Assembly (NCBI GenBank): GCA_000934665.2
Contig: KZ538366.1
Coordinates: 60,291-80,290 of the forward strand
Source of the DNA: Catajapyx aquilonaris
Lineage: Eukaryota
DNA length: 20,000 bases
Direction: 5' to 3'
Part shown: positions 937-16,304 of the stretch, piece by piece
Layout of the letters: every line of letters begins with the position of its first letter
How positions within the stretch are numbered: position 1 is the first letter of the stretch
Notes under the pieces: generated by a model
What the model saw: the letters and a program-made list of their open reading frames with translations, nothing else
Databases searched by the model: none
What the model was told of the DNA's origin: nothing
Made by a program: the position numbers and the translations under genes

Positions 937-3900
937 ATGATGGCCAGCAGTGCGCCTTCGCCACGTCGCAACTCGTTGTCGACGGCTAACGTCTGCACTG
1001 GTGACAATGTGGAGCAGGTGTTTGACGTGGTGTCGCGTGAGTTCTACGCGCTTGGGTACTACGACTCATCGGGCGGGGTGTCGTCCAACGGGGGTAAGCC
1101 GGACTTGGTCGCGCTTCTCAACGGGGCGATGGCGATGCTGAGGCAGGTGCGTCGGAGCGAGATGCATCGGGAGGAACTGCAGCAGCGGTTGAACCGTGCG
1201 AACTCGGATATGCAGCATCTTCAGAAGGTGCGGGACTACCTAAAAGAACAGCTGGCGTCGAAGGAGAAAGAGGTGGCCGAAGCGCAAGAGAAGGAACGGC
1301 AATCCAGCCAACAATCGGCTGAATTGCAACTGGAGCTGAAATCCAAAAAAGCACAGGTCGTATCAAAATGTACGCTTCGTACATGTTTGAATCTACATGT
1401 CCAGTATAATTGCAGGTGGCGCAACTGGTGTGCTCGCAACAGCATCGGGAGATCCAGTTTCAGCATGAGCTGCGGAAGACGTCGAGCGAGAACCAGCGTA
1501 TGAAGGAGCATCTTCACCGCAGCATGGCTAACAAGAAGGCGGAAGCTGCATTGGGAATGGAAATACTTAATCCGGGCGGACGAGGAACACTGTCGGGGCC
1601 GTGCAAGCGGTTGCAATGGAAAACCGAAGCATCGCTCGCAAAGTAACGACATTACAAACATTACTAAACAATTGTAATGTTATCATGAAAATGGACTTAG
1701 GGGACTTTGGAATCACTCGTCAATATTACGAGATGACTGAAATTGTAATAATTGCAGGGTCGAACAACAGGTTGATCTGGATGTGATTCGGATGCTGGAG
1801 CGTCGTCAGCAGGAGTTCGTCGAGGAAAACCATTCGCTGTTGGGGCTTCTGACGACTGCGACTCATCACATGCACATTTGGACCAGGAGGATGTCGGATT
1901 TGCTGAAGGTACCGGTATGATCGGAATATACAGCAGTTGTACTTTATTTGGCGTACATAACAGCGTGAAGGGTCAGAGTGGCGTACATTGTAACCAGGAA
2001 GGTTAAGCTAGTGGCGCTGCTGGCCTCTATCGGCATCGTTTCATTGGCGTGGATGACCCGAGGTATGCAGTGACCCTCTGGAGTGAGCTCGTCCGCAAAT
2101 GTAGCCGTCGACTGCTCCGGATCGCCAACGCATTTACCGGACTCCAATAGCGACTGGTGATACTCAGATTCAGTTCCGTTTCCACGTGCGACCATAACGA
2201 GCCAGCCCAACTCGTCACATTCGCATCTGAACACATTTTGGGACACCGATACATTTCGGAAGGACGCGACGTCCGGATGGAGCGAACCAGGCTCGGCCAG
2301 ATGAACGTAGTTGCCGTTCATTACGAGCGTTTCGCCGGAGACACGCTCAAACGCACCTGTCGCCAAGTGATAAAACACGTTGCTGCTTATGTTCACCAAC
2401 TGCGATTGAACCTTGAGTGCGCCAGGCTCCACCGGTTCCTCCACACTATTGGAGCTGAATTCAAACTGGGTTGATGTCACCTCGACCGATCCGGCCTCGA
2501 GGTGAATAATGTGGCAGCCGTTAAATGTGACATGAGTTGCGTCCAGCTTAAGTCCGCCTGTTTGTACGTTGAAAAAGTACGAACCGGCTATGTACACATG
2601 GCTTGTCTCGTTTAACGGTGGCGACACTTGAATCGCGCCCGGTGCAACTATCCGCACCGAGCAATTCACTAACTGAAAGCTACGTGCCAGTATGTCGCTA
2701 AATGCGCCTGGCGATATTGTACCGATTTCCGTGTTTTCAAATGCGACCGATTGCGGCTCGTACGATTGGATCGCAAACGTTTGAGTTGGGATCTCCGGTA
2801 TGTACTCGATGTTTTGGAACGCAACCAGAACTGTCGAGGTGAACGCGCCTGGCGAGAGATCGACTCGCGCTATGTCACGAAGGCGTACAAACGGTACGTG
2901 AACCGTCACAGGCGGGATGGAAACCTCAGCGCAGCCGGACAACGACAGTTCCAGAACGTCATCCGGAATGTGGAAGTTGAGCGATCCGAGATGCACAACC
3001 TGTCGGAAACATTTAATTAGAATCGACTTGGGTCTAATTAGTGCGTACTTACAGATATGTTGGCGTCACAATTGCAGTCGATACTGATGAGCCCGAATTC
3101 CTCGGCGCAATTGCAAATGTGCAGATCGCAAAGTGAACCTTCCGCATTGTTACAGGCGGCAACGAGAAGGATTAATAGAATGAGCGGCATTGTTTTGCTG
3201 CCGAAATGCTTCATGCCACGCTTTCATTTAGTGTATGAGATTAGCCGTGGGGCAACCTCGTGATTAATTTGTTGCGTGGGATGAAAAGCATTGAACCAAT
3301 TTGATTACTTTATTTCGGGAGGGGGAGGCCACGGGAGGGGAAAATGGTTTTGTTGACGCTCACTTTTTTTATTGATAAAACCAGTTTTAGTGCTCGTCAT
3401 TCTACAAGTGTCGAGCAGGTGGTGCTGCACAGCTTCCTGTGATTGCATGCTGTTGGAGGGAGAGATAAGTCTGCGAAGAATATATTACTTCCTGTGGTCG
3501 GTCCGTACACAATTTTGCTTTACTAATCAAAAGCCACTGCACAACATTTTCAAGTTTGTATCGGCACATTTGTACCTAAAACAACATTGCAAGCACCCAA
3601 AGAATAATCGAGTTAATACATGTTACAATCGCACTGGCCGCAGATTTTTCATTGTTTTTCGGGCAGGCTGTTGTTGTCGAGATTGTCGGTTTCGATTGCG
3701 AACTGGTGCCTCCTTCCTTGTTGCATAGGTCCAAAGCGATCTTGATTTTCTCGCCAGAGTTGCAGTCGTTGTCGTTGACCAGCTTCAGGAACAGTTTGTC
3801 GTACTGTGTGTTCATGAACTCGGCTTGCATACCTTTCAGTACCCAAGGAAGCATATTGCAATCGCATGGAAACTTGTTCCCAGCCAGTTCGACCGTCTGC

Positions 3901-6488
3901 GAACGTACCTCAAACGGAGCGTCCACGTCTCTGATTGTGTTGCTGTTCATCGTGAAGAGCGAAGAGTTGATTTGAAATGCGCCTCGTTCGATTATCTGCA
4001 AAGTGCTGTTTGAAATATGGAACGTGTGGACGCTGATTTGGAATGCGCCAGATTCGACTAGCTGTACTTTTGAATCTTGAAGTACGAACGAAGCGTCTTG
4101 CGACATCGTTGCTTTCACAGCGCCCGATTGAAACGCCCCGATTTTGCAGTTGCGGAACTCGATATTCCCGATCAAGAAGGCCTCGTCGAACGTGTCGCCT
4201 CCGACGTACCCAATATACGAGTCCAAATACGTGACGTTGCTCATATGCTGCGGATTGATCAACATATTCTCGGTGACATTAGTGTCCTTCACGTTCTCAA
4301 CCAGCAAATGAACTTCGGAGCTGAGGAACAACGCTTGTATGAGCAGCCGCTTAACGTTGAACACGTGCACATGATGAACCTTATCGAAGTAGAAGACGTC
4401 ACCAGCCAAAGTCACATTCTCGCAGGACGAGAAGGAAATGTTGACGGCCGTCGTTGGGATGCTGTAAGCTCCGATAACAATGTCGAATTCCTGGAAGAAC
4501 ACCAGTTCAAATGTTAACAATTTGCACACTTTTCCTTTATACGTAACTAGCGGTTTTAGCGAGATAATTACTGATATTGAAATGTAAATCATGTCGACAT
4601 GGCTTTAGACAACTCGTGCCTACTGCGACTGAAATAATACCTGATGATCAGAAGGACACTTGCAGTCTATCGTCACCGGAGCCTCATCATCCGGAAAACA
4701 CTGACAACCGCTCTCCAGGCACATGTGAATCTTACTCTCAACCCGATGCGAGACCGCAATCGCAACGATCAGCAGTACGAAAAGCACTATGCACGACATG
4801 ATGTCAGAATGGCACAAAAAGGCACTACGGTTTTGATTTTATAAAAACAATATACTTCGGAAAGAGCAGGAAGTGGGAAGCATTGGTCAAGACGGCTGCA
4901 CCAAGGAGGAAATAACTTGCAAAAAATGTGAGCCGCACGGATTTTCAGTTGCGTGATAGACTAATAAAATATCCAAGCATTGCATGGTGCGATTACTGTA
5001 CCTGATTATTCGGTGTGCACTTGCAGTCTATAGTCAGTGGAGACGAGTCGTTCGGAAGACACTGGCATCCGCTTTGCAGACAGATGTTCCCCTTGTTTTC
5101 CACCTGATACAACGAGTGACACGAGACGATGACTGCCGCCACCACGACAAGAACGAAGCGTGACATGTTGTCGGAATGGCGCAAAAGCAGCAATGACTTT
5201 TTTTTTTAAGGGCTACTCCAAGAGGAGCCTTCCAAAGGCAGGAAGTGGTGAACTTCCGCTCTTAGTTGGCTGTGGTTTTTATTTTATTGCTATTAGTCAC
5301 ATACGTAGGCTAAACCGGAATGATTTTGACCACATCCTGTTTGCTGCAGATTCATTCTCGTTAATATGAATTCTCCATAATTTTTTATAGGAAGAAGAGC
5401 AGAGTACTTGTGAGAACGGAGCGGTTTCCGTCGACAGCATGCCGAGCCAGCTGGTCAAGGGAAAGGTCACAAGGGTCATCAGAAAGTGCGACGAGACCTG
5501 CGAGAGAGCAGCCGAGTACGCCGCAAACAGTCAGTTCCATTTGATTCGATTCATTAAGGTTAATCAGAAATCTCAGTACGTTGGAAATAATGTACAAAAA
5601 AAAGTTATGTCCCCACCGAATTGCGGCTTCGGGAATTTGAATGCCGCACTTACGACTTTCTGAGGCAAACCTTTTAAGGAAATAAATTTATGCGCTTCCT
5701 GCCTTTATGCAACTACTGACTTTTTAATAACTGTGCAATTGAAGAATTACGATCCGTTGAATCCGCGGCATTGGAACATTTGCGCTGATGAATTACATGA
5801 AACCGCATAATCCGTCATCGATTTTATATCGATCTAATGCGTACTTTTGTTCTCAAGGACTGGCCTCGTTGGAGTCGGAATTGGAGAAGTACGAGCATAA
5901 GGAGCACGAGTGGAAGGAAATCATGGCGAAGTATCTGGACAACCCACTCGGACAAGGTACTGTGTTGTTGATTGTTGTCATGCCGATTTTAATGTACCCG
6001 GCCAAGTAGGTCCGTGCGGGGATGATAATGCGAACGTGGCCTTCCTACACGACGCTTATATCCTGGAAGAGAAGACGCAGTTTGAGCAGGAAAAGCAGGA
6101 GCTGGAGAGGGAGAAGCTGCGGCTAGCCGAGGAGAGACGGACTTATACGGACTCATTCAGCCAGCTCTACGTCGAGGTCGGTTTATCGCAACTTCTGTAC
6201 CGCATTTTTCCCTAACGTCTTTTTAATCTCATGTAGAAAGAGGCGTTTCGTCAGCAGAAGATGAAGTTCTTTCTGTCGCAATTCTGCCAGACTCCAGCCG
6301 GACGCAGCAACGATAATCCGTGGTACACGCCTCCTTGTCGGACGCCTGGAGTCGTCCGGATCACCTCGGAGAACAACACTCCAGCGACTAGCCCCACTGC
6401 CAAATCTAGAACCCGAGGACACTGGTCCGCCCCTCCTTCCACGGCCAGGTCGAGGCTCAAGTTCTCGCCAACCGACGATACCGACTGA
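937..6488 (+). CDS. SSX2IP: Afadin- and alpha-actinin-binding protein (SSX2IP/ADIP/Msd1)-like centrosomal coiled-coil protein, ~486 aa; exons 937-1356, 1416-1642, 1758-1914 (alternative donor after 1908), 5391-5529, 5858-5956, 6010-6176, 6237-6488
   Basis: All six introns are GT..AG and phase-consistent (0,2,0,1,1,0); spliced length 1461 nt = 487 codons. Motifs recalled from the ADIP family: CTGDNVEQ..REFYALGY, QFQHELRK..ENQRMKEHL, GMEILN..QWKTE, RRQQEFVEENHSL, FLHDAYILEEK..EERRTYTD. A short upstream coding exon (517-543, MSSTLCAPS, donor at 544, acceptor TAG at 934-936) is possible but unsupported. Confidence 0.85.
1944..3190 (-). CDS. LRR-like secreted, probably GPI-anchored cell-surface protein, paralogue A (~397 aa); exons 3190-3053 and 2999-1944; nested in SSX2IP intron 3
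   Basis: Exon 1 translates as MPLILLILLVAACNNAEG-SLCDLHICNCAEEFGLISIDCNCDANIS (signal peptide + Cys cap) followed by donor GTAAGT; 53-bp intron ending ttccgacAG; exon 2 has repeats of the type NxxIxxIxPGAF, an LRRCT-like NVFRCECDELGW..C..C and a hydrophobic C-terminus preceded by small residues (EASSA). Confidence 0.85.
3576..4799 (-). CDS. LRR-like secreted, probably GPI-anchored protein, paralogue B (~357 aa); exons 4799-4641 and 4490-3576; nested in SSX2IP intron 3
   Basis: Exon 1 MSCIVLFVLLIVAIAVSHRVESKIHMCLESGCQCFPDDEAPVTIDCKCPSDHQ then GTATTA; acceptor ttcttccAG at 4492-4491; exon 2 repeats (NCKIGAFQSGAV, DSKVQLVESGAF, NSTLQIIERGAF), NKFPCDCNMLPW, Ser/Thr linker and hydrophobic tail IILWVLAMLF. 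Minus-strand AATAAA at 3373-3368 and 3314-3309. Confidence 0.85.
5002..5166 (-). CDS. Orphan duplicated first exon (signal peptide + Cys-rich N-cap, 55 codons) of the LRR-GPI family; candidate alternative first exon for paralogue B
   Basis: MSRFVLVVVAAVIVSCHSLYQVENKGNICLQSGCQCLPNDSSPLTIDCKCTPNNQ with intact ATG and phase-0 donor CAG|GTACAG; 17/27 identities with B exon 1 over the Cys cap; no body exon between 5002 and the B promoter region. Confidence 0.75.
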
Positions 6489-7563
6489 TTGTGATCTAAT
6501 GAATATTTTTACACTTTAGCAATAAGAACAATCGAGGTGCGTTGGGCAGCGTACATATCTATGCATTTCATTGTGATTAATTCGGCTGCCTTAAAGTTCG
6601 TCCCGAGTTGACTGATGTGCGGCCTTGTACGCAAGGTTAAGTCAATCCCATTTGGGGACAGTTTAACATGTGCTCGTCGCAATGGATAGTTCAATTTTTA
6701 CGCCCATATTGTCAGATTAATATTTATTGCCAAGTACTTGTTCATTAATTGTTGAGTACGTGAAGAAATTAATATCGTTTGCTAGCCCATTTGGCATCGA
6801 CGCATTTGCACACCGATAATAACTTTTTGAGTGTGTTCGCTACGTGAAATGCGCTTATCCGCGTCCTTTTCACGCTAAAGCCGTGTACGCTAAGCGTTGC
6901 TCAACTTTGTATATAATTATGTGTAACGAGAACGGCGACTTTTTTTTTTGTACAGGATTTAAATTGAAAAAAAAAACGTCTATTTATGTACCTCTTTTTT
7001 GCAAAGTAATAATTACAGTACTGAGCTATTTTTCGTGCATTTTCTTTGCTGGTACCTTCGCCAAGTAACAATGGCTTGAGAACCATGGCCTCATCGATTT
7101 ATTTAAAAAGCGTGACGACTTGGGGAAAACAATTGGTTTAATAGCATCCAGCCATTGTTTCCTGCTCGGTAGTTACAGTTGGGGAATTGGACACGCATTA
7201 TTCAATTAGCAACACATGCCATTAATATTTAGCAATTTCGGGTGCGATTGCCCAATTCCAGCAGTACTTAACCGCCAGCCGTACTTAACCGTAAGTACTT
7301 GCTCGAGTCGCGCTCTACAAAATTTTCTGAAATGAGGCTGTCGGTTTCGTTTTATTCTGGATAAATGCGGATACATTGGGTCGTCAGGTAGAAGGATCGA
7401 CAGCAAACTTTATTTTCGTGCATTAAAAGCAGCCATTACATGCATGAACGTTTCCGTTTGGATAAAGCAGAATCTTCGATTGCACAGTGTACGACCTGAC
7501 GTAACGGCCAAAGCGCTAACGAGTTGTCGTAATGTACGGGAAATCCAATTGTCGCATCCGGTG

Positions 7564-8943
7564 TTAGAAACGTATGGTAATCCACAGCAACGTTATGGTT
7601 AGGAATGTTGCGGATGGAGCATCGGCTCCACATTTGCTGACTTGCGGTGCGGGCGTTGACGACGTTTTGGTTCGTCTTTTTGCCTTTGTTGCTGTGGTTG
7701 GCTTTGTTGTTGTGATTCGCTTTGTTCGCACTGAAGGCGGCGGGGTTGAAACCGTAGTTGTTGTCATGTCGGCCATACAATTGTCGATGTCAAGTTTCAT
7801 AATATTTTTCGTTTGCGTGCACCAGTTGTTGTACACAAAGTCCGGGTACGTACCAGTCTCACTAACAACGGCCATTATCCACATCACATGCTGGCAATCA
7901 CAGGGCAACGTGTTGTTGATGACCACCGATTTTTCAGATCTGACGTTAATCTGGCCGTCTAAATAGTCGAATCGATTGTTAACAAACGTAAAGGTAGTCA
8001 CGTTCAGCCAGAATGAATCAATTTCGGCCCAGTTGAACGTACTGTCCAGGAGCATGAATTCATGTATGTTCATGGCGAACGCGGCTGTGTGAGTCTTACT
8101 GACGATGCTATTGGTCATGATGAACATACCCAACGGAGCATAAGTTGCGTCAAATGCACCCGTTTCAATGGTTCCGATTTGCGTGTACCTGATCTCAACA
8201 CTTCCCAATTCCAACGCACGTTCAAACGCATTCCTTTCGATAACCCCAACGTTAACATTCCAAAAAGTGATGTTCGTCGTATAAAATCTGTTGGTCAGGA
8301 AGCCCTCCGTGAAGTTAAAGCTCCCTATGTTTTCCACCTGCAAATGTACATTCGACAAGAAGGTAACCCTCTGCATATGGAGATACTGCACGTTCTTGAT
8401 GCGGACCAGCTCCAGATCGGACGAGTTGAACCAGAAGGTGTCGATATTCAAATATTGACAACCCATGATGCTCAGGCTGACCGCATTTAGCGGAAACTCA
8501 TGCAGGTCATTGTGAAGAGTCATATTCTGGAGAAAAAAAAAATTATGTCATTCAGCAACGTAACGATGAATGAAAACCATAACGTACATTGGGTTTACAT
8601 CGGGGTTACATCAGGTTTACATCGGGTTTACATCGGGGTTACATCGGGTAAAACATAGCGCACTTTACGACGATGTACAAACGACGTAAAGTCCGCACCA
8701 TTTCAACAGATTGAGCTTAATTCCGAAACGCATCTGCGGTACCTCTAAGAGTACCGGTACAGTTAAAGTGACGTACAGAGCTAATATGTAAACTCTTACC
8801 TGTATTTCCGGGCTACATTTGCAGGCAATTATCACAGCGTCCTGGGCTTCTCCGACACATTCACACCCTTTCGTATCGCATATGCTCTCAGCGTCGGCCA
8901 GTATGTACGTGCCACACAGCACGATGAGTACGAGGCACCACAT
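7564..8943 (-). CDS. LRR-like secreted, probably GPI-anchored protein with Thr-rich stalk, paralogue D (~368 aa); exons 8943-8800 and 8526-7564
   Basis: Exon 1 MWCLVLIVLCGTYILADAESICDTKGCECVGEAQDAVIIACKCSPEIQ then GTAAGA; acceptor polyT-ctccAG at 8528-8527; repeats NVNVGVIERNAF, YTQIGTIETGAF; NTLPCDCQHVMW..NNWC; Thr/Pro/Lys-rich stalk; tail GADAPSATFLTITLLWITIRF. Minus-strand AATAAA at 7414-7409. Confidence 0.85.
8591..8649. repeat. 11-bp tandem repeat GGGTTTACATC, ~5 copies, in the intron of LRR paralogue D
   Basis: gggtttacatc ggggttacatc aggtttacatc gggtttacatc ggggttacatc gggt. Confidence 0.9.
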
Positions 8944-9612
8944 GGCTGCGTACAAACGCTGACTGTGAAGACTTGGAGCAGTGCAAACATGTAACTTTGG
9001 CCGTGGCGGAAAAGAAAAGACATTTTTTTTTTTACAAAAATATTGTCGGGTAGGACAGGAAGCAATTTCCTGGCATTTAAGTATGGCAATTAGACCTACA
9101 AGTCCGTGTTATTAGTTTCCTTTCTCTGCAATTTATTTGCAATATGCAACTATTTGCACGTACGTAATAACGCCTGTTGTCATCACGGACAATGTGCGAT
9201 TCGCTTTAAAATTACGCCTAGATCTGGACCGGTTTTTTGATAATTGTCATGCCGTTCTAATGAGCGACTTACTTCCTACGTGCTGGCGACTACGCTGCCT
9301 CATTTACCATGAAAGTACAAATCACGGCACGTGCTACGCAACAAGTCAATAAAAAGACTTGAACGTTGCTGCGGAAAAAGGCTCCCAATTTTATGGAGTC
9401 CTTCCTAGTTGCTCGCGGCTAGTTTACACATATTTGCTTCATTTCCCATGTAATGTGGCAAGCGGATTTTTACGTGAGTTAACAGTTGCGGACCATTTCG
9501 ATGCGGATGCCGCATTTTTTTGTGTACATATCCTTGCAATTATTGCCCTTGAAGATTTAAGGTACTTAGAAAATGGAGTATGTACAAAATGAGCCTCTTT
9601 ATTTGCGGATGA

Positions 9613-10192
9613 TCATGATGTTTTGTTTATAGCAGGGTGTGCCATGCGGAATAGTTGTCCGTTCCGTCCGTTCCTGATGGCCAGCTGCTCCGCTGTGTCT
9701 CCGGCCATGTTCTTGATTGTCGCGTCCACATGCGGATTCATCAGCAGCACCTCGATTGTCTTAGTCGCGTTGTGAGCCGCAGCCAGATGCAACGGGGTCT
9801 GTCCGCCACTGGTGAGCCCGTTAACGTTAGCGCCACGGTTCATCAGCAGATCCACACACTCGTACTGATCCCACCTGCAAAGTACGACCATCAGTACAAC
9901 ATCCGCAATGGGTACGGAAAGGGGCGTACCTGGCAGCCGAATGCAACGGCTGCCACCCGTCGTTGGTGCAGGCGCTGGCGTCCGCACCGCTGAACAGCAG
10001 GAAATCCACGACCTCCCTGTGCCCGTTGTAGCAAGCCCGATGCAGCGGAGTGTACCCGTCGGAGTCCCTCGACTCAGCCAGGAGACCCAGGTGCTCCTTG
10101 ACCTTCTGGAGGTCACCCGCTTCGGACGCCTTCAGAAGCGGATCCGACTCATCCTCGTAATCGTCCTCACTCGAACTCGACTCGACCTGCAT
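9613..10192 (-). CDS. ANKRD49: Ankyrin repeat domain-containing protein 49-like (~174 aa); exons 10192-9930 and 9874-9613
   Basis: Ankyrin repeats DSDGYTPLHRACYNGH, TNDGWQPLHSAARW, TSGGQTPLHLAAAH..IEVLLMNP match the recalled ANKRD49 pattern, with an acidic N-terminus; 55-bp phase-2 GT-AG intron; AATAAA at 9603-9598. Start at 10192 is inferred from an acceptor at 10195-10194 and a non-coding upstream exon ending at 11457 (AAG|GTAAGT). Confidence 0.85.
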
Positions 10193-10225
10193 CCTTCGAG
10201 ACAAAGAAACCATTGGGTTCACTAT

Positions 10226-11215
10226 ATGCTGTTGCCATGTGCAAACAAACACACAAACTTTCCGTTATATACGTGTAAATTTTGCATGTTTCATGGATTG
10301 TATTGTACCCAGTTTTACATTAATTGCGTAATTGTTGCCATGGCAAGCCATTGCTATGGTATGCTGTTGCCACGGTAGGCCGGTAGCTGTTAACATGGAT
10401 CATCGCAATGGACTCCCGTGGCAACAACTTGTCATGTTAAGCCGTTGCCATGATAAGCTGTTGCCATGCATGACAATGGCTTATCATGGCTACGGCTTAA
10501 CATGACAACGGCCATGATAAGCCGTTGCCATGCTATCCCGTTGCCATGATAAGCCGTTGGCATGCTAAGCTGTTGGCATGGACAAACAAACACACAAACT
10601 TTCCGTTATATACGTGTAAATTTTGCATGTTTCATGGATTGTATTGTACCCAGTTTTACATTAATTGTGTAATTGTTGCCATGGCAAGCCATTGCTATGG
10701 TATGCTGTTGCCACGGTAGGCCGGTAGCCGTTAACATGGATCATCGCAACGGACTACCGTGGCGACAGCTTGTCATGTTAAGCTGTTGCCATGCATGACA
10801 ATGGCTTATCATGGCTACGGCTTAACATGACAACGGCCATGCTAAGCTGTTGGCATGGACAAACAAACACACAAACTTTCCGTTATATACGTGTAAATTT
10901 TGCATGTTTCATGGATTGTATCGTACCCAGTTTTACATTAATTGCGTAATTGTTGCCATGGCAAGCCGTTGCTATGGTATGCTGTTGCCACGGTAGGCCG
11001 GTAGCCGTCAACATGGCAACGGCTTATCATCGCAACGGACTACCGTGGCGACAGCTTGTCATGTTAAGCCGTTGCCATGATAAGCTGTTGCCATGCATGA
11101 CAATGGCTCATCATGGCAACGGCTTAACATGACAGCAGCCATGATAAGCCGTTGCCATGCTATCCCATTGCCATGCCAAGCTGTTGGCATGGACAAACAA
11201 ACACACAAACTTCAC
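10226..11215. repeat. Higher-order tandem repeat: ~3 units of 341, 277 and 334 bp built from ~16-bp palindromic GTTGCCATGGCAA-like subunits
   Basis: Anchor CAAACAAACACACAAACTT recurs at 10242, 10583, 10860 and 11194; GTTGCCATGGCAAG at 10334, 10675 and 10952. Confidence 0.92.
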
Positions 11216-11827: not shown

Positions 11828-12606
11828 ATGAGTGAGCTGGACCTGTACATGATCCTGCCAAGCGCACCGTGTCGTGCGGTGCTTCTAACCGCAAACGCAC
11901 TGGGGCTGAGCCTCAACCGTAAGATGGTCGACCTGTCCTTGAAGGAGCAGCTGAAGCCAGACTTTGTCAAGGTAATGCGGAACACGTAACGATGAACATT
12001 GCTAATCAAAGCATATTTCAGATGAATCCGCAGCATTGTATTCCGACGCTTGTCGACGGGGACTTCATAATGTGGGAGAGCCGGGCCATTATGGCCTACA
12101 TGGTGCAGCAGTACGGGAAGGACGACTCGCTGTACCCGAAGGATGCGAAGATACGTGCGAGGGTGGACCATCTGCTGTACTTCGACATGGGGACACTCTT
12201 CTTGCGGTTCCGATACTGCTACGTATGTCGTACTTTCCTTACGGGGTCGACAGGAGACTAACGCTCGTATTTGCAGCGACCGGTTGTGTTCGACGGGGAG
12301 CATTTTGATCCGAAGAAAGAAGAGGCTGTGTGCGAGGCATTGGGTTGGCTCGACGCCATGATTGGGGATAAGAAATGGGCCGCGTGCAACCAGCAGACCA
12401 TTGCGGACCATGCCCTGGCTGCTTCGTTGGCGACCCTCGAGAATGTTTGCGTGGCCATTGATTTCCAGAAGTACCCCAACGTCACCCGCTGGCTGCAACA
12501 GTGCAAGAAGGAGCTGGCCGGATACGAAGAAAACCACGAGGGAGCCAAGACATTCGGGGACATGTTCAAGCGAGCAATGGCCAAACTGCACATCCAACCT
12601 GCCTAA
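11828..12606 (+). CDS. GstD: Glutathione S-transferase, Delta/Epsilon class (224 aa); exons 11828-11971, 12022-12222, 12277-12606
   Basis: MSELDLYMILPSAPCRAVLLTANALGL..NPQHCIPTLVDGDFIMWESRAIMAY..LYPKDAKIRARVDHLLYFDMGTLF..TIAD..YPNVTRW; three exons joined by phase-0 GT-AG introns; putative non-coding exon ending 11645 (GAG|GTGAG) with acceptor at 11807; AATAAA 12645-12650. Class (Delta vs Epsilon) not resolved. Confidence 0.92.
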
Positions 12607-12738
12607 TTGTACAAAAATCACAGCACCATTGTGCATTATCTGATAATAAAAATGTGAAGCCCATTTGCTAGCAACTGGCTGTCAACAATCCGTATTGTTA
12701 AAGTAACCTCCCAACAGCAAAATGGATTGAGCGCAAAA

Positions 12739-13824
12739 ATGTCATTGGATTTGTATATGGTCCTGGCGAGTAACTCATGCCGTGCGGTGTTACTGACGGT
12801 GCACGCTCTGGGATTGCAAGTGAACCGGAAGATTGTCGACCTCCAGGCCAGCGAGCAACTAAAACCGTATTTTCTCAGAGTAAGTACCGCTGGGACCTTC
12901 AGTACTGTACGACTGATTTGTTGATTCATTCCGCAGCTCAACCCGACACACAGCCTGCCGGTTCTAGTCGATGGCGACTTCGTGCTATGGGAGAGCAGAG
13001 CAGTAATGGCCTACCTGGTGAACAAACAGGGGCCGGACAACGACCAACTGTATCCGGTTGATCCAAAGCGAAGAGCTCGGGTGGATCAGTGTTTGCATTA
13101 CGACCATGGGACCCTATTTACACGATTCAAGTACTGCTACGTAAGTCAGGTTACTGTTTGTAATAAGGACTATGAAGTAGTTGACAAACGGTAATTGCAG
13201 CAACGTGTGGTTCGAACTGAAAGCTACGTGGACCCGCGAAGGGAAGCCCTGCTATGTGAGGCTGTCCATTGGCTCGACCAGTACATCGGGGATCACAGGT
13301 GGGTCACAGGTAACCATCAGACCATTGCCGATCACGCCCTGGCTGCATCGATGACCACTATCGTCAAGTCCGCCTTCGTTGTTCATCTTGACGATTACCC
13401 CAACATTCAGAGGTGGCTGAAGACATGCAAGAGCGAGCTGAGAGGGTTTTCCGAGAATGAAGCAGGTGCTGTGGAATTTGCCCGCCTGTTCCACCGCTCG
13501 TTCTTTACCGGGCTAAAGACAGGATATGATGACACAAGGAGTGTCGTCTCAGAGGTATCTGAGCCTACACCGAGCGTCACACCAAGCGTCACTTCCCTGC
13601 AAAGCATTAGATCAGTCGCCTCGTCAATAGCTGATTCTGTGAAGAAGAAGTTCAGTAGGAATAAACCCTCTCAAAAACAGTACACATGTGCGTTTAAAAT
13701 ACTTTTTTTTTTTTTGCAATTAGTCTCTCGTTGTGTACAGATTTGGCAAACGGTTAAGCTAATTCACGTATGCGTTCAACTTTTTCGTCCTCGGTTTCGC
13801 TACATTCTTCCCAGATGCTTATGA
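12739..13824 (+). CDS. GstD: Second tandem Delta/Epsilon-class glutathione S-transferase with an apparent Ser/Thr/Pro-rich C-terminal extension; exons 12739-12879, 12937-13140, 13201-13824 (3' end uncertain)
   Basis: MSLDLYMVLASNSCRAVLLTVHALGL..LNPTHSLPVLVDGDFVLWESRAVMAY..TIADHALAAS..YPNIQRW; same intron positions as the upstream GST. The GST fold ends near 13500 but the frame stays open to 13824. Confidence 0.85.
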
Positions 13825-16304
13825 ACAGTCTTGCTAATCGGTGTGCAAACTTGTCTTGAGTTAGGATAGTGCGACACTCTGCAATCCATCGTTTCGTCTG
13901 TAAAAAAAACATGTTTGCTGGTGACTAGTCAGCAGAGGACAACCAAATGAAAGGCATATAACTTGCCTGGTTTTGCATGGAGTGATATTCCTCGTCTTTC
14001 TTCATAATTTCCTGCAACTCTTCTTTCGATACATTAAGAACAGAGCATGTGAGCGACTCTATTTCGTCCACTGTCGCGGACGACACCATCGAGGATTGGT
14101 CTGCATTGCGCTGCGCTTGCACCCGCTGACCCACCACTCTGACATACTCCTGGGCAATCGGAAACATTTGAGTACCGAATAGCATTACCAGCAACTAACC
14201 ATCGTACCTCCAGTGCCTTCATCATCTGGTGGGACTTGCCGTCTTCCTTCCTGGTGTGATGCGACAGATCAGTCTGCAGCCGGAACAAGTCCTCCTCCCG
14301 CAGCCTGATTTTTTCCTTCATTGAGGACAGCTGCAATGAACCAAGCGTCACCATCGCTCTAATATGACTGGAGGACAGTACCTGTCTGAAGTGCTCCTGA
14401 CGTTCATGGTTCAACGTGCTCAGAAGCTCCTCCTTCTGCTTCTTCTGCGTCCACAGCTGAGTCCTTAACGATGAACACTGCGGATTGCAAAGAGCGTACA
14501 TTGGTTAAAGAGTACGGATGGGTACAGGGTGACCCACAGGTAAGCTCACCTCAGCCTGCGCCTTCTTGCACTGGTCCCCCATCCTCTTGGCCTCATCCTG
14601 AGAGTCGGTCAGCTTACCCGTGACCTCCGCAGCTTCCCTCTTCAGGTCGCTTATCTTCATCTTGTACGCCTCCAACAGCAGCCTCCGGTTCTTGCTCTCG
14701 TTCACCTGCCGACGAATCCTGCAATATGCACCACAAGGATTATTTCCTTCAACAACCCATACTCAAGTGGATATGACCTGTCTTTGAGCGCATATTCTGT
14801 GTCTGGGTCGATCTTGACCTGCTGCTGTTGGTTGACCTGATCCTGTTCCTTCTGTCCTGATTTCAGCAGCATCTCCAGGTAGTTCTTGGTGTCCTGGAGC
14901 CTGGCCTCCAGCTTCCCGTGCTCCTCCAGATGCTTCTGGAGGGTCTGGCTCTTCGACTCCAGGTCGCCGTGGAGGACAACCATTGCCCTCTCGGTGTTCA
15001 TCTGCCTCCTTGTAACCACGTGTAGCTGGGAAAAATATCAGTTGAAGATGCCTGTTTACGTCCTCGCGATTTGAGCCTCTGTCGCACGACTTGAGCCTCT
15101 GTCGCACGACTTGAGCCTCTGTCGCACGACTTGAGCCTCTGTCGCACGACTTGAGCCTCTGTCGCACAACTAAAGCCTCTGTCGCACGACTAGAACCTCG
15201 GTCGCACGACTAGAAACTTTGCGACCTAGGGGAACCTATTTTTGTCGGTTTCAAAGCGTCTGGTCGTGCGACCGAGGCTCAAATCGTGGGGGCGTAAACA
15301 GGCCTTGAAGTGAACTACGCACCTTCGATCGCACGCGTCGAAGGAAGTACGTAACCTTTCCAGACGACGACGACTTCGGTTTGCAATTTAGTCGCGTGCG
15401 ACTGACGCTAGTAGATGCTGCGACCGAAAGCGGCTTATCGCTTTTGGCCGCTTTCGGCTGCTGCGTTTCTTCCGGAACTTGCTGTGCGGTCTCGACGCAG
15501 CTGGTCGCTTGTTGGGGTTGTCCTATACCCATGTAGACTGTGCTCTCACTGTCAGTGTCGGCAGCGGATAGGACGGACACGTGGCTCGCTCTGTTGTCGT
15601 CCAGCTTCACCGGGGGCGTCGGAGCGCGTTGCGACCGTGCGGACATGATGCTTTCGGTCGCTTCATTCAGAAGCTGCTGAAGCGGGTCGGCGTGACGCTC
15701 GTTGCGTCGCTGAGTCGGATCAGGAGAAACGCGACGTCGTTGCGCGTTGTCGCGTCGCTTATTCGAATCAGGAGAGCCACGACGTCGTTGAGCGTCGTTG
15801 CCGCGTCGCTGAGTCGAATCAGGAGAGACACGACGTCGCTGCGCGTCGTTGCCGCGTTGCTTACGTTCAGATTTAGTGGCGATCAGGGGCGTCCGCCTAT
15901 AGTATAAAAAAATGAACTGATATAATCACAGGCCTGTTGACGCCCTCACGATTTGAGCCTCGGTCGCACGACCAGACGCTTTGCGACCGACGAAAATAGG
16001 TTCCTCATAGGTCCGGTCGGTACGATTCGAATGTAGTCGTTCCTACCGGACATGTAGCAAAGCGTTGGTCGTGCGACAGAGGCTTTAGTCGTGCGACCGA
16101 GGCTTTAGTCGTGCGACCGAGGCTCAAATCGTGAGAGCGTAAACAGGTCGCTGTAGCATGAACTGACCATGGTGCTGCAGCGAGAGCTTCAGAGAGGAAC
16201 CTCTGTGACAGGAGGTCAGTGTCGATTGAGGCGGTTGACCCGCGTGATATCGACGTTGCGCTCAGCGAAGATTCAGACACGTCGTCCCACAGGTCACCAA
16301 CGGC
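13754..16304 (-). CDS. CNTLN: Coiled-coil protein, centlein-like (at least 546 aa, 5' end unresolved); exons 16304-16168, 15896-15356, 15025-14778, 14718-14550, 14477-14382, 14330-14208, 14149-13967, 13897-13754
   Basis: Eight exons join in frame (1641 nt) with canonical acceptors, six GT donors and one GC donor. The C-terminal part ALEEYVRVVGQRVQ..IESLTCSVLNVSKEELQEIM..KRWIAECRTILTQDKFAHRL resembles my recollection of the centlein segment LHEFVKALAKELQ..AASILNISRSDLEEIL..EWMLYIQKLLEGQLPFA. The gene structure is better supported than the name. Confidence 0.65.
15049..15304. mobile_element. MITE-like non-autonomous element, copy 1, with ~41-bp terminal inverted repeats and seven internal 20-bp tandem units
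   Basis: Left GCCTGTTTACGTCCTCGCGATTTGAGCCTCTGTCGCACGAC (15050-15090) is the near-perfect reverse complement of 15263-15303; TTGAGCCTCTGTCGCACGAC x7 at 15071-15210. GGCCTGTTTAC-type termini resemble PIF/Harbinger (Tourist-like) ends, but no TWA target duplication is visible. Confidence 0.8.
15930..16149. mobile_element. MITE-like element, copy 2, same family, opposite orientation, three 20-bp units
   Basis: 15930-16004 is the reverse complement of 15231-15305 with a few mismatches; right end GTCGTGCGACCGAGGCTCAAATCGTGAGAGCGTAAACAGG; 20-bp units at 16068-16127. Confidence 0.8.

What the first reader, a model, noticed from the sequence alone, without database searches (positions are those of the whole stretch)
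4490..5260. Four N-cap exons but three body exons: candidate alternative or combinatorial first-exon usage
Seen: 5166-5002 is an intact copy of exon 1 with no body exon of its own, ~200 bp upstream of B exon 1. Its leader is homologous to B's (minus strand: cttttgcgccattccgacaacATG vs tttttgtgccattctgacatcATG), so the promoter and exon appear duplicated together. Cys and signal-peptide character are conserved while other residues differ, which suggests selection rather than decay. All four first exons end in phase 0 and all three body exons start in phase 0, so up to 8 collinear in-frame combinations are possible. Inference: promoter choice swaps the N-terminal cap on a shared LRR body, loosely like variable-first-exon clusters (protocadherin, UGT1).
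Basis: partly seen in the sequence, partly recalled or inferred. Interest (0 to 1): 0.8.

Follow-up and report, generated by a model that had tools for sequence, protein, structure and literature searches.

The report
Orphan duplicated first exon upstream
An arthropod gene for a secreted leucine-rich-repeat-like surface protein has a second, old but still intact copy of its promoter and first exon just upstream; this copy is probably a minor alternative first exon, but its splicing has not been shown.

Summary
The minus strand holds four signal-peptide/Cys-cap first exons (8943-8800, 5166-5002, 4799-4641, 3190-3053) but only three body exons, with no relic of a fourth. The orphan exon X and about 86 nt upstream of it are homologous to B's promoter and exon 1.

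X looks selected rather than decaying. pN is 0.23 against pS 0.66, and X has changed no faster than B's exon 1. Its ATG, open frame, five Cys and GT donor are all kept, which is unlikely under neutral drift.

Usage is not settled. The one spliced RNA data set has a low-depth contig that covers X but runs unspliced 51 nt past its donor. No polyA signal lies between X and B's 3' UTR, and B exon 1 cannot follow X in frame. An X-started transcript therefore either splices 5002>4490, giving X cap on B body, or carries X as an upstream ORF.

The cluster-wide, protocadherin-like combinatorial idea is not supported. Each body has its own stop and tail, and A is seen joined only to its own body.

The family is an uncharacterised arthropod LRR-like solenoid. 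Interest is modest.

The parts
5167..5252 (-). Promoter-like region and leader of the orphan exon X. It holds CTTCCTG (5245-5239), an A-rich TATA-like run (5211-5198) and the leader TTTTGCGCCATTCCGACAAC.
   Evidence: Homologous to 4879-4800 upstream of B: 60 of 76 aligned bases are identical. The motif was found. Promoter function is inferred, not shown.
5002..5166 (-). Orphan first exon X: 55 codons encoding a signal-like peptide and a five-Cys cap, ending in phase 0.
   Evidence: An RNA contig covering 4951-5195 (depth 2.2) includes it.
4981..5001 (-). X's donor site (GTACAG) and the first 21 nt after it, which are still alignable to the start of B's intron. An in-frame TAA lies two codons after the exon end.
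   Evidence: 15 of 21 identical. The RNA contig runs through this stretch unspliced.
4880..4980 (-). Spacer between the X unit and the B unit. It has no detectable similarity to the rest of B's intron or to the sequence upstream of X.
   Evidence: scores 16-20, within the shuffle range.
4800..4879 (-). B's promoter-like region and leader. It holds CTTCCTG (4873-4867), TATAAAA, and the leader TTTTGTGCCATTCTGACATC.
4641..4799 (-). B exon 1: 53 codons, with donor CAG|GTATTA.
   Evidence: The junction to the body is inferred from homology to A's confirmed junction; no RNA contig covers it.
4491..4640 (-). B's intron (150 nt), ending in the acceptor ttcttccag.
   Evidence: Inferred.
3576..4490 (-). 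B's body exon: 304 codons plus the stop. It encodes an LRR-like beta-solenoid, a CxC...W cap, a Ser/Thr stalk and a hydrophobic tail. It is the only acceptor-bearing exon that X could reach before a polyA signal.
   Evidence: An RNA contig covers 3319-4264.
7564..8943 (-). Paralogue A: exon 1 at 8943-8800, intron at 8799-8527, body at 8526-7567 plus the stop.
   Evidence: The splice 8800>8526 is shown by a contig of depth 67.6.
1944..3190 (-). Paralogue C: exon 1 at 3190-3053, body at 2999-1947 plus the stop.
   Evidence: The junction is inferred.
1907..5388 (+). Intron of a plus-strand ADIP-domain gene, whose seen exons are 1800-1906, 5389-5529, 5858-5954, 6008-6174 and 6235-6923. X, B and C lie inside it in antisense orientation.
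   Evidence: Joints. Pfam ADIP match on 937-1503.

Best explanation
An old local duplication copied the core promoter, leader, first exon and start of the intron of gene B, and placed the copy (X, 5252-4981) about 370 nt upstream of the original. Both copies have since been kept as coding sequence.

The most likely working model has four steps:
1. Transcription can start at X's own promoter at a low level.
2. With no polyA signal in the way, the transcript runs through B's promoter and exon 1.
3. The cap-proximal donor at 5002 is joined to B's only acceptor at 4490.
4. B's exon 1 is removed as part of a 511-nt intron.

The product is B's LRR-like body, stalk and tail carrying a different signal peptide and a different 30-residue five-Cys N-cap, 55% identical to B's own.

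Shown: the duplication, the selection signature, that the X sequence is present in RNA, the lack of a polyA signal, and the lack of any in-frame route through B exon 1.

Inferred: the start site, the strand of the RNA contig, the 5002>4490 splice, and the protein.
For: - Homology covers the promoter, exon and donor: score 145 against shuffles of 25 +/- 3.8.
- X versus B exon 1, over 51 aligned codons: 28 amino acids identical, pS 0.66, pN 0.23, dN/dS about 0.17. Fisher test on synonymous versus non-synonymous changes gives p = 1.6e-5. Codon positions 1+2 are 72% identical against 55% for position 3, a pattern of selection rather than gene conversion.
- Relative rate: X-unique versus B-unique amino-acid changes are 3 versus 4 with outgroup A and 3 versus 3 with outgroup C; for nucleotides, 13 versus 19 and 12 versus 16. 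X has not sped up.
- Neutral simulation: the chance of keeping the ATG, open frame, GT and five Cys is 0.0005 at 0.4 substitutions per site and 0.017 at 0.2.
- The upstream 86 nt are better kept (60 of 76 aligned) than third codon positions. CTTCCTG sits 68-79 nt before the ATG of both X and B and 113 nt before A's. The motif occurs 9 times in the window against 2.3 expected, and 0 of 200 shuffles reach 9.
- X's donor matches the consensus as well as B's does: CAG|GTA followed by three mismatches in both (the consensus is recalled).
- The cap has five Cys and the first body repeat has one Cys that is invariant in A, B and C. The same 5+1 pattern appears in an orthopteran and an ostracod homologue. 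An odd-Cys cap probably needs a body; this is an inference.
- There is no AATAAA or ATTAAA between 5001 and 3373, and 0 of 6 AG sites between X and B's ATG give an open in-frame route.
- An RNA contig covers 4951-5195 with 0 differences.
Against: - No joint from 5002 is listed in the one RNA data set. Its only contig over X (245 nt, depth 2.2) runs on 51 nt past the donor unspliced.
- In the same run, A's intron and the host gene's introns are joined across at depths 67.6 and 22.1, so leftover pre-mRNA is not generally abundant there. Contigs show presence, not absence, and give no strand.
- The contig's upstream end at 5195 abuts an A10 run, so it need not mark a start site.
- X's TATA-like element is degenerate, whereas B has TATAAAA.
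- B's proximal donor at 4641, with its 150-nt intron, could out-compete X's. X would then become an upstream ORF.
- No orthologous locus could be examined.
- A recent loss of X's own body cannot be excluded. The simulation still gives 0.12 survival at 0.1 substitutions per site.
Confidence: 0.45

Rival explanations
1. X is an upstream promoter with a non-productive first exon. X-started transcripts keep 5001-4800 and use only B's own donor (4641>4490). X is then a 57-codon upstream ORF (it would read ...NNQVQ then stop) in a long B leader, or it is simply a recently orphaned relic whose weak transcription is noise. It may descend from a full paralogue whose body was deleted not long ago.
For: - The only contig over X's donor is unspliced.
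- TAA lies two codons past the exon end.
- There is no polyA signal before B.
- Depth is 2.2 against 13.2 for B's 3' part (contig depth is a poor measure).
- A short neutral period cannot be excluded: 0.12 survival at 0.1 substitutions per site.
Against: A relic or a pure uORF does not explain several results. pN is far below pS, X's rate equals B's, and the five Cys, the signal-like core, the phase-0 end and the GT are all kept across a divergence that has nearly saturated silent sites. The deletion would also have to be recent and to end neatly between X's donor region and B's promoter.
Confidence: 0.3
2. X encodes a free-standing small secreted Cys-rich peptide, about 35 residues after signal cleavage, translated from the unspliced RNA.
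For: The unspliced contig, the complete ORF with a signal-like start that stops two codons after the donor, and the evidence for coding constraint.
Against: - The mature part has five Cys, an odd number. In this family that pattern goes with a sixth Cys in the first body repeat.
- The conserved CAG|GTA phase-0 end and the alignable intron start point to a kept splice donor.
- There is no polyA signal of its own.
Confidence: 0.08
3. The four first exons form a variable-first-exon cluster whose caps are combined with any downstream body, giving up to 8 products as in protocadherin or UGT1A clusters.
For: All four exons end in phase 0 and all three bodies start in phase 0. The genes are collinear on one strand.
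Against: - Each body ends in its own stop, stalk and tail, so there is no shared constant region.
- A's exon 1 is joined to A's body in a contig that runs on to A's 3' UTR.
- Plus-strand exons lie between A and X.
- AATAAA at 3373 and 3314 ends B before C's ATG at 3190.
- No cross-gene joint is listed (contigs cannot show absence).
Confidence: 0.03
4. This is an assembly artefact: two alleles or a collapsed or expanded repeat placed in tandem.
For: The placement of X next to B is not bridged by any independent contig. The RNA contig stops at 4951.
Against: The copies differ at 66% of silent sites and by two in-frame indels, far beyond allelic difference. There is no N in 3000-9500. X with its own flanks is reproduced exactly in RNA contigs.
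Confidence: 0.03

Closest known systems
Alternative first exons with their own promoters, arising by tandem duplication of the 5' end of a gene (general phenomenon; recalled, no paper read for it)
   Same: There are two promoter-plus-first-exon cassettes in tandem, both in phase 0, ahead of one acceptor. The downstream cassette has no usable acceptor, so the two would be mutually exclusive.
   Different: Use of the upstream cassette is not shown. The only RNA contig over it is unspliced.
Variable-first-exon clusters: clustered protocadherins and UGT1A (recalled)
   Same: The proposed logic of promoter choice selecting the N-terminal part of an extracellular protein is the same, and so is the use of a cap-proximal donor.
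   Different: In those clusters many variable exons, each encoding a whole ligand-binding region, share one set of constant exons. Here there are three complete two-exon genes plus one extra first exon that encodes only a signal peptide and a 30-residue cap. There is no shared constant region.
Extracellular LRR ectodomains with Cys caps: TSH/FSH receptor LRR domains, Nogo receptor, Slitrk, hagfish VLR; arthropod GPI-linked LRR proteins such as chaoptin and connectin
   Same: The predicted fold of B's body (pLDDT 83.9) aligns best to the TSHR LRR domain (Z 17.9, rmsd 3.2, 198 residues), then FSHR (Z 16.5) and Nogo receptor-2 (Z 15.4). It has an N-terminal Cys cluster and a C-terminal N-x-F-x-C-x-C...W cap. 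The Atlas neighbours are arthropod LRR proteins, scoring 0.84-0.86, which are leads only.
   Different: Pfam LRR models do not reach their cut-off on the window's proteins: LRR_8 gives E 0.092 and 13 bits against a cut-off of 27. Parallel beta-helix enzymes score nearly as well (Z 13-14.7), and C's body nearly reaches Pfam Beta_helix (24.1 against 25.9 bits). The cap has five Cys rather than the usual four (the usual count is recalled).
Uncharacterised arthropod proteins found by profile search (for example XP_057663483.1 Diorhabda, XP_044766839.1 Coccinella, XP_067013006.2 Anabrus, CAG0886177.1 Cyprideis)
   Same: The architecture is the same: signal peptide, Cys cap, solenoid, CxC...W cap, and often a hydrophobic tail. 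196 proteins have E<=1e-3 and 28 have E<=1e-10.
   Different: They are only 15-21% identical to B's body. All 8 of the 10 looked-up clusters that carry a name are named 'uncharacterized', 'hypothetical' or 'unnamed'. Their gene structures could not be seen.

Membership tests
Two-cassette alternative first exon (one gene, two promoters) | Two first exons, each with its own promoter, upstream of one shared acceptor | tested here: inconclusive
   The conserved upstream 86 nt, the shared CTTCCTG and the TATA-like elements suggest a promoter, and an RNA contig covers X. No start site or strand could be read from contigs.
Two-cassette alternative first exon (one gene, two promoters) | The upstream first exon is spliced to the shared second exon | tested here: inconclusive
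   The one run laid lists no joint from 5002, and its contig over the donor is unspliced. Contigs show presence, not absence.
Two-cassette alternative first exon (one gene, two promoters) | The downstream first exon cannot be included after the upstream one (mutual exclusivity) | tested here: met
   0 of 6 AG sites between 5001 and 4800 give an open in-frame path into B's ATG.
Variable-first-exon cluster (protocadherin / UGT1A type; features recalled) | All variable exons share one set of constant exons | tested here: not met
   A, B and C each have their own body with a stop codon and tail. A's exon 1 is joined to A's body.
Variable-first-exon cluster (protocadherin / UGT1A type; features recalled) | The variable exon encodes the whole ligand-binding region | tested here: not met
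   X and B exon 1 encode only a signal peptide plus a cap of about 30 residues.
Extracellular LRR proteins with LRRNT/LRRCT caps | Sequence match to curated LRR models above their cut-off | tested here: inconclusive
   B's body gives LRR_8 E 0.092 and 13 bits against a cut-off of 27. The homologue P0003 passes with 36.6 bits.
Extracellular LRR proteins with LRRNT/LRRCT caps | Curved solenoid fold like solved LRR ectodomains | tested here: met
   AF2 model with pLDDT 83.9. Matches: TSHR Z 17.9, FSHR Z 16.5, NgR2 Z 15.4. Foldseek alone is weak, with best E 0.01, though all its top rows are LRR ectodomains.
Extracellular LRR proteins with LRRNT/LRRCT caps | Cys clusters flanking the repeats | tested here: met
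   C-x4-C-x-C-x11-C-x-C in the first exon. C209, C211 and C243 are kept in 90% or more of the 42 aligned sequences.
Right-handed parallel beta-helix (Pfam PF13229) | Match above the Pfam cut-off, or best structural match to beta-helix proteins | tested here: inconclusive
   C's body scores 24.1 bits against a cut-off of 25.9. PL6 lyase and tailspikes give Z 13-14.7, below the LRR receptors.
GPI-anchored surface protein | C-terminal cleavable hydrophobic signal with an omega site | not testable with these tools
   A Ser/Thr-rich stretch followed by a hydrophobic C-terminus can be read in A and B. No predictor was available.

The most novel reading that the evidence does not exclude
The locus is a small variable-first-exon system in an uncharacterised arthropod LRR-like surface-protein family. 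Promoter choice swaps the signal peptide and five-Cys cap, and read-through past weak gene ends lets X, B1 and perhaps A's exon reach more than one body. The cluster would then make more cap/body combinations than it has genes.
Probability: 0.04. Interest if true: 0.7.

Novelty: new member of a known kind. Interest (0 to 1): 0.3.

Why it matters
If X is spliced to B's body, one gene makes two surface proteins that differ only in signal peptide and N-terminal cap. The arrangement would have been held by selection since a duplication old enough to nearly saturate silent sites. That would be a clean natural case for asking what the cap of an LRR-type solenoid contributes to folding, secretion, tissue-specific expression or ligand choice, in a family found across arthropods that has no known function. 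If X is not spliced, it is an example of a duplicated promoter and first exon acting as an upstream ORF or a recently orphaned relic, which is ordinary. Either way it is not a protocadherin-like diversity generator.

Tried and rejected
- **Sequencing runs.** Only one run (X1) was listed, and no RNA holder was listed. The record does not say RNA, but its contigs are spliced.
- **Parts without contig cover.** In that run 4265-4950 (B's 5' body, intron, exon 1 and promoter), 2051-3305 (C) and 5196-5388 have no contig. Nothing is concluded from this. B's and C's own junctions therefore stay unconfirmed.
- **Word-based protein search with B's body.** 718 candidates, none at E<=0.001.
- **Naming the organism through a GST exon.** 24 GST hits, none close or with a species name.
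- **Whole genome.** None is held, so paralogues elsewhere and a possible body for X outside the window could not be sought.
- **Earlier findings.** Nothing was returned.
- **Alignment of 4980-4880.** Compared with the rest of B's intron, with X's upstream region and with A's and C's introns, all scores fall within the shuffle range. A 370-nt tandem unit can be neither confirmed nor refuted.
- **Foldseek against PDB.** No match at E<=0.001.
- **Paper searches (listings only).** Nothing on this family or on a comparable duplicated cap exon. No paper was read.
- **Not run.** A cap-plus-body complex prediction, because a pass was expected from homology and would not bear on splicing. Also a third word-based search with the 55-residue X exon, because one search showed that no close relatives are in that collection.
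Full report
**What is in the window.** The window is eukaryotic and arthropod-like. Introns are GT..AG, and every named relative of the proteins in question comes from insects or a crustacean.

Three two-exon genes of one family lie head-to-tail on the minus strand:
- A: exon 1 at 8943-8800, body at 8526-7567.
- B: exon 1 at 4799-4641, body at 4490-3579.
- C: exon 1 at 3190-3053, body at 2999-1947.

There is also a fourth first exon, X, at 5166-5002.

Each first exon encodes a hydrophobic signal-like start and a cap with five Cys (C-x4-C-x-C-x10/11-C-x-C). Each body encodes a repeat region, an N-x-F-x-C-x-C...W motif, a Ser/Thr/Pro-rich stretch and a hydrophobic C-terminus. The bodies are 20-28% identical to one another.

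**Checking the observation.**
- X is an open 55-codon frame from ATG to CAG|GTACAG, 202 nt upstream of B's ATG.
- Local alignment pairs 5252-4981 with 4879-4617: about 86 nt upstream, the exon and about 21 nt of intron. The score is 145, against 25.1 +/- 3.8 (max 37) in 200 shuffles.
- Profiles of bodies and caps over all 782 six-frame ORFs of 15 aa or more find 3 bodies and 4 caps and nothing else. The next best body hit has E 0.55. The cap profile contained X, so one search is the independent test.
- All first exons are multiples of three in length and all bodies start in phase 0. One small correction: C's exon ends at 3053.
- The region has no N.

**Is X decaying or kept?** The evidence says kept.
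- Between X and B exon 1, 28 of 51 aligned residues are identical. pS is 0.66 (near saturation) and pN is 0.23, giving dN/dS of about 0.17. The Fisher test gives p = 1.6e-5.
- Codon positions 1+2 are 72% identical and position 3 is 55%. This is a selection pattern, not gene conversion.
- With A or C as outgroup, X has no more unique changes than B exon 1: 3 versus 4 and 3 versus 3 for amino acids, 13 versus 19 and 12 versus 16 for nucleotides.
- In a simple neutral simulation, the chance of keeping the ATG, open frame, GT and five Cys is 0.0005 at 0.4 substitutions per site, 0.017 at 0.2 and 0.12 at 0.1.

X has therefore been a coding exon for most of the time since the duplication. Only a recent loss of function remains possible.

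The upstream 86 nt are kept better (60 of 76 aligned bases) than silent sites. They include CTTCCTG about 70 nt before both ATGs. The same heptamer lies 113 nt before A's ATG, and two copies in the other orientation lie upstream of C. It occurs 9 times in the window against 2.3 expected, and 0 of 200 shuffles reach 9. Its likeness to an ETS-type GGAA core, and the TATA and initiator readings, are recalled and not tested.

**RNA evidence.** Only one public run was offered. Its contigs are spliced, so it is RNA. It shows four things:
- A's junction 8800>8526, in a contig of depth 67.6 that runs to 7467.
- A plus-strand gene with exons 1800-1906, 5389-5529, 5858-5954, 6008-6174 and 6235-6923. Its N-terminal ORF carries an ADIP domain. 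X, B and C therefore sit antisense inside its 3482-nt intron.
- B's 3' part, 3319-4264 (depth 13.2).
- A 245-nt contig of depth 2.2 covering 4951-5195 with no differences. This is X, 29 nt of leader and 51 nt beyond X's donor, unspliced.

No joint from 5002 is listed. In the same run A's intron and the host gene's introns are joined across, so unspliced RNA is not generally abundant there. Even so, a contig at depth 2.2 represents a handful of reads. Contigs give no strand, drop rare forms, and this one ends against an A10 run. The evidence shows that the X sequence is present in RNA. It leans slightly against efficient use of X's donor in that sample.

**What an X-started transcript must do.** The first AATAAA or ATTAAA after X's donor is at 3373, in B's 3' UTR. 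None of the 6 AG sites between X and B's ATG gives an open in-frame path. An X-started RNA therefore carries B's body and has two possible fates:
- Donor 5002 is joined to acceptor 4490, giving in-frame X cap on B body, with B exon 1 removed inside a 511-nt intron.
- Only 4641>4490 is used, leaving X as a 57-codon upstream ORF that stops at a TAA two codons after the exon end.

X's donor (CAG|GTACAG) fits the recalled consensus no worse than B's (CAG|GTATTA). It would be cap-proximal, which from recalled knowledge favours its use. The five-Cys cap goes with one invariant Cys in the first body repeat in A, B and C, and the same is seen in an orthopteran and an ostracod homologue. This suggests the cap is not a self-contained unit, though that is an inference.

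**Weighing.**
- X as a minor alternative first exon of B: 0.45. This best explains the long-term coding constraint, the kept donor and the kept promoter-like sequence.
- A non-productive upstream promoter, uORF or recently orphaned relic: 0.30. This best explains the unspliced contig.
- A free-standing small peptide: 0.08.
- Assembly artefact: 0.03.
There is no shared constant region, each body has its own stop and tail, A is seen joined to its own body, plus-strand exons separate A from X, and B has its own polyA signals ahead of C.

**What the family is.**
- Pfam gives only sub-threshold hits: LRR_8 E 0.092 on B, and Beta_helix 24.1 bits against a cut-off of 25.9 on C.
- A profile of the three bodies finds 196 proteins at E<=1e-3, with 28 at E<=1e-10.
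- Of the 10 proteins looked up, the 8 clusters that carry a name are 'uncharacterized', 'hypothetical' or 'unnamed'. They come from beetles, a katydid and an ostracod.
- An AlphaFold model of B's body built from 42 sequences (pLDDT 83.9, pTM 0.79) is a beta-solenoid. It aligns best to the LRR domains of the TSH receptor (Z 17.9, rmsd 3.2, 198 residues), the FSH receptor (Z 16.5) and Nogo receptor-2 (Z 15.4). Parallel beta-helix enzymes follow at Z 13-14.7.
- Foldseek is weak (best E 0.01), but all its top rows are LRR ectodomains.
- The Atlas neighbours are arthropod LRR proteins scoring 0.84-0.90, which are leads only.

I file it as an uncharacterised arthropod LRR-like capped solenoid. It is probably a surface or secreted protein. 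The GPI reading is untested.

**Novelty and verdict.** A duplicated promoter-plus-first-exon cassette is a known way to make alternative N-termini. This would be a new instance in an unstudied family, and it is not a new kind of system. Interest is 0.3.

No supplements or paper texts were read. Statements about protocadherin/UGT1A clusters, splice-site consensus, cap-proximal donor preference and promoter motifs are recalled.

Noticed in passing
window 1800-6923 (+), intron 1907-5388: A plus-strand gene with an ADIP (afadin/alpha-actinin-binding) domain has a 3482-nt intron that holds genes B and C and exon X in antisense orientation. C's stop at 1944 lies only about 40 nt from the host exon at 1800-1906.
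   Followed up: partly
window about 8585-8650 (-), inside A's intron: A short tandem array of about 11-13-nt units (CCCGATGTAAA-like, about 5-6 copies) can be read in the sequence.
   Followed up: no
window 1995, 3433, 3488, 4867, 5239, 5695, 8296, 9056, 14247: The heptamer CAGGAAG/CTTCCTG occurs 9 times against 2.3 expected. Copies sit upstream of the first exons of A, X and B in the same orientation, and two copies in the other orientation lie upstream of C. It may be a shared regulatory motif of the family.
   Followed up: partly
window 11923-13824 (+) and 9613-10264 (-): Two neighbouring glutathione S-transferase genes (GST_N and GST_C matches) and an ankyrin-repeat gene lie next to the cluster.
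   Followed up: partly
window 14763-15925 (-): Open frames here contain repeated peptide units (such as SCDRGSSRATEA.VVRQRLK and QRRGNDAQRRR.SPDS), suggesting a tandem repeat inside a coding region. They have no Pfam match.
   Followed up: no
window 4016, 4026, 4065, 7739, 8903: The RNA contigs differ from the window by single bases in B's body (3) and in A (2). These are probably strain or allele differences.
   Followed up: no
window about 100-170, about 17660, about 19740: Runs of N (seen as X in the translations) mark assembly gaps near both ends of the window.
   Followed up: no
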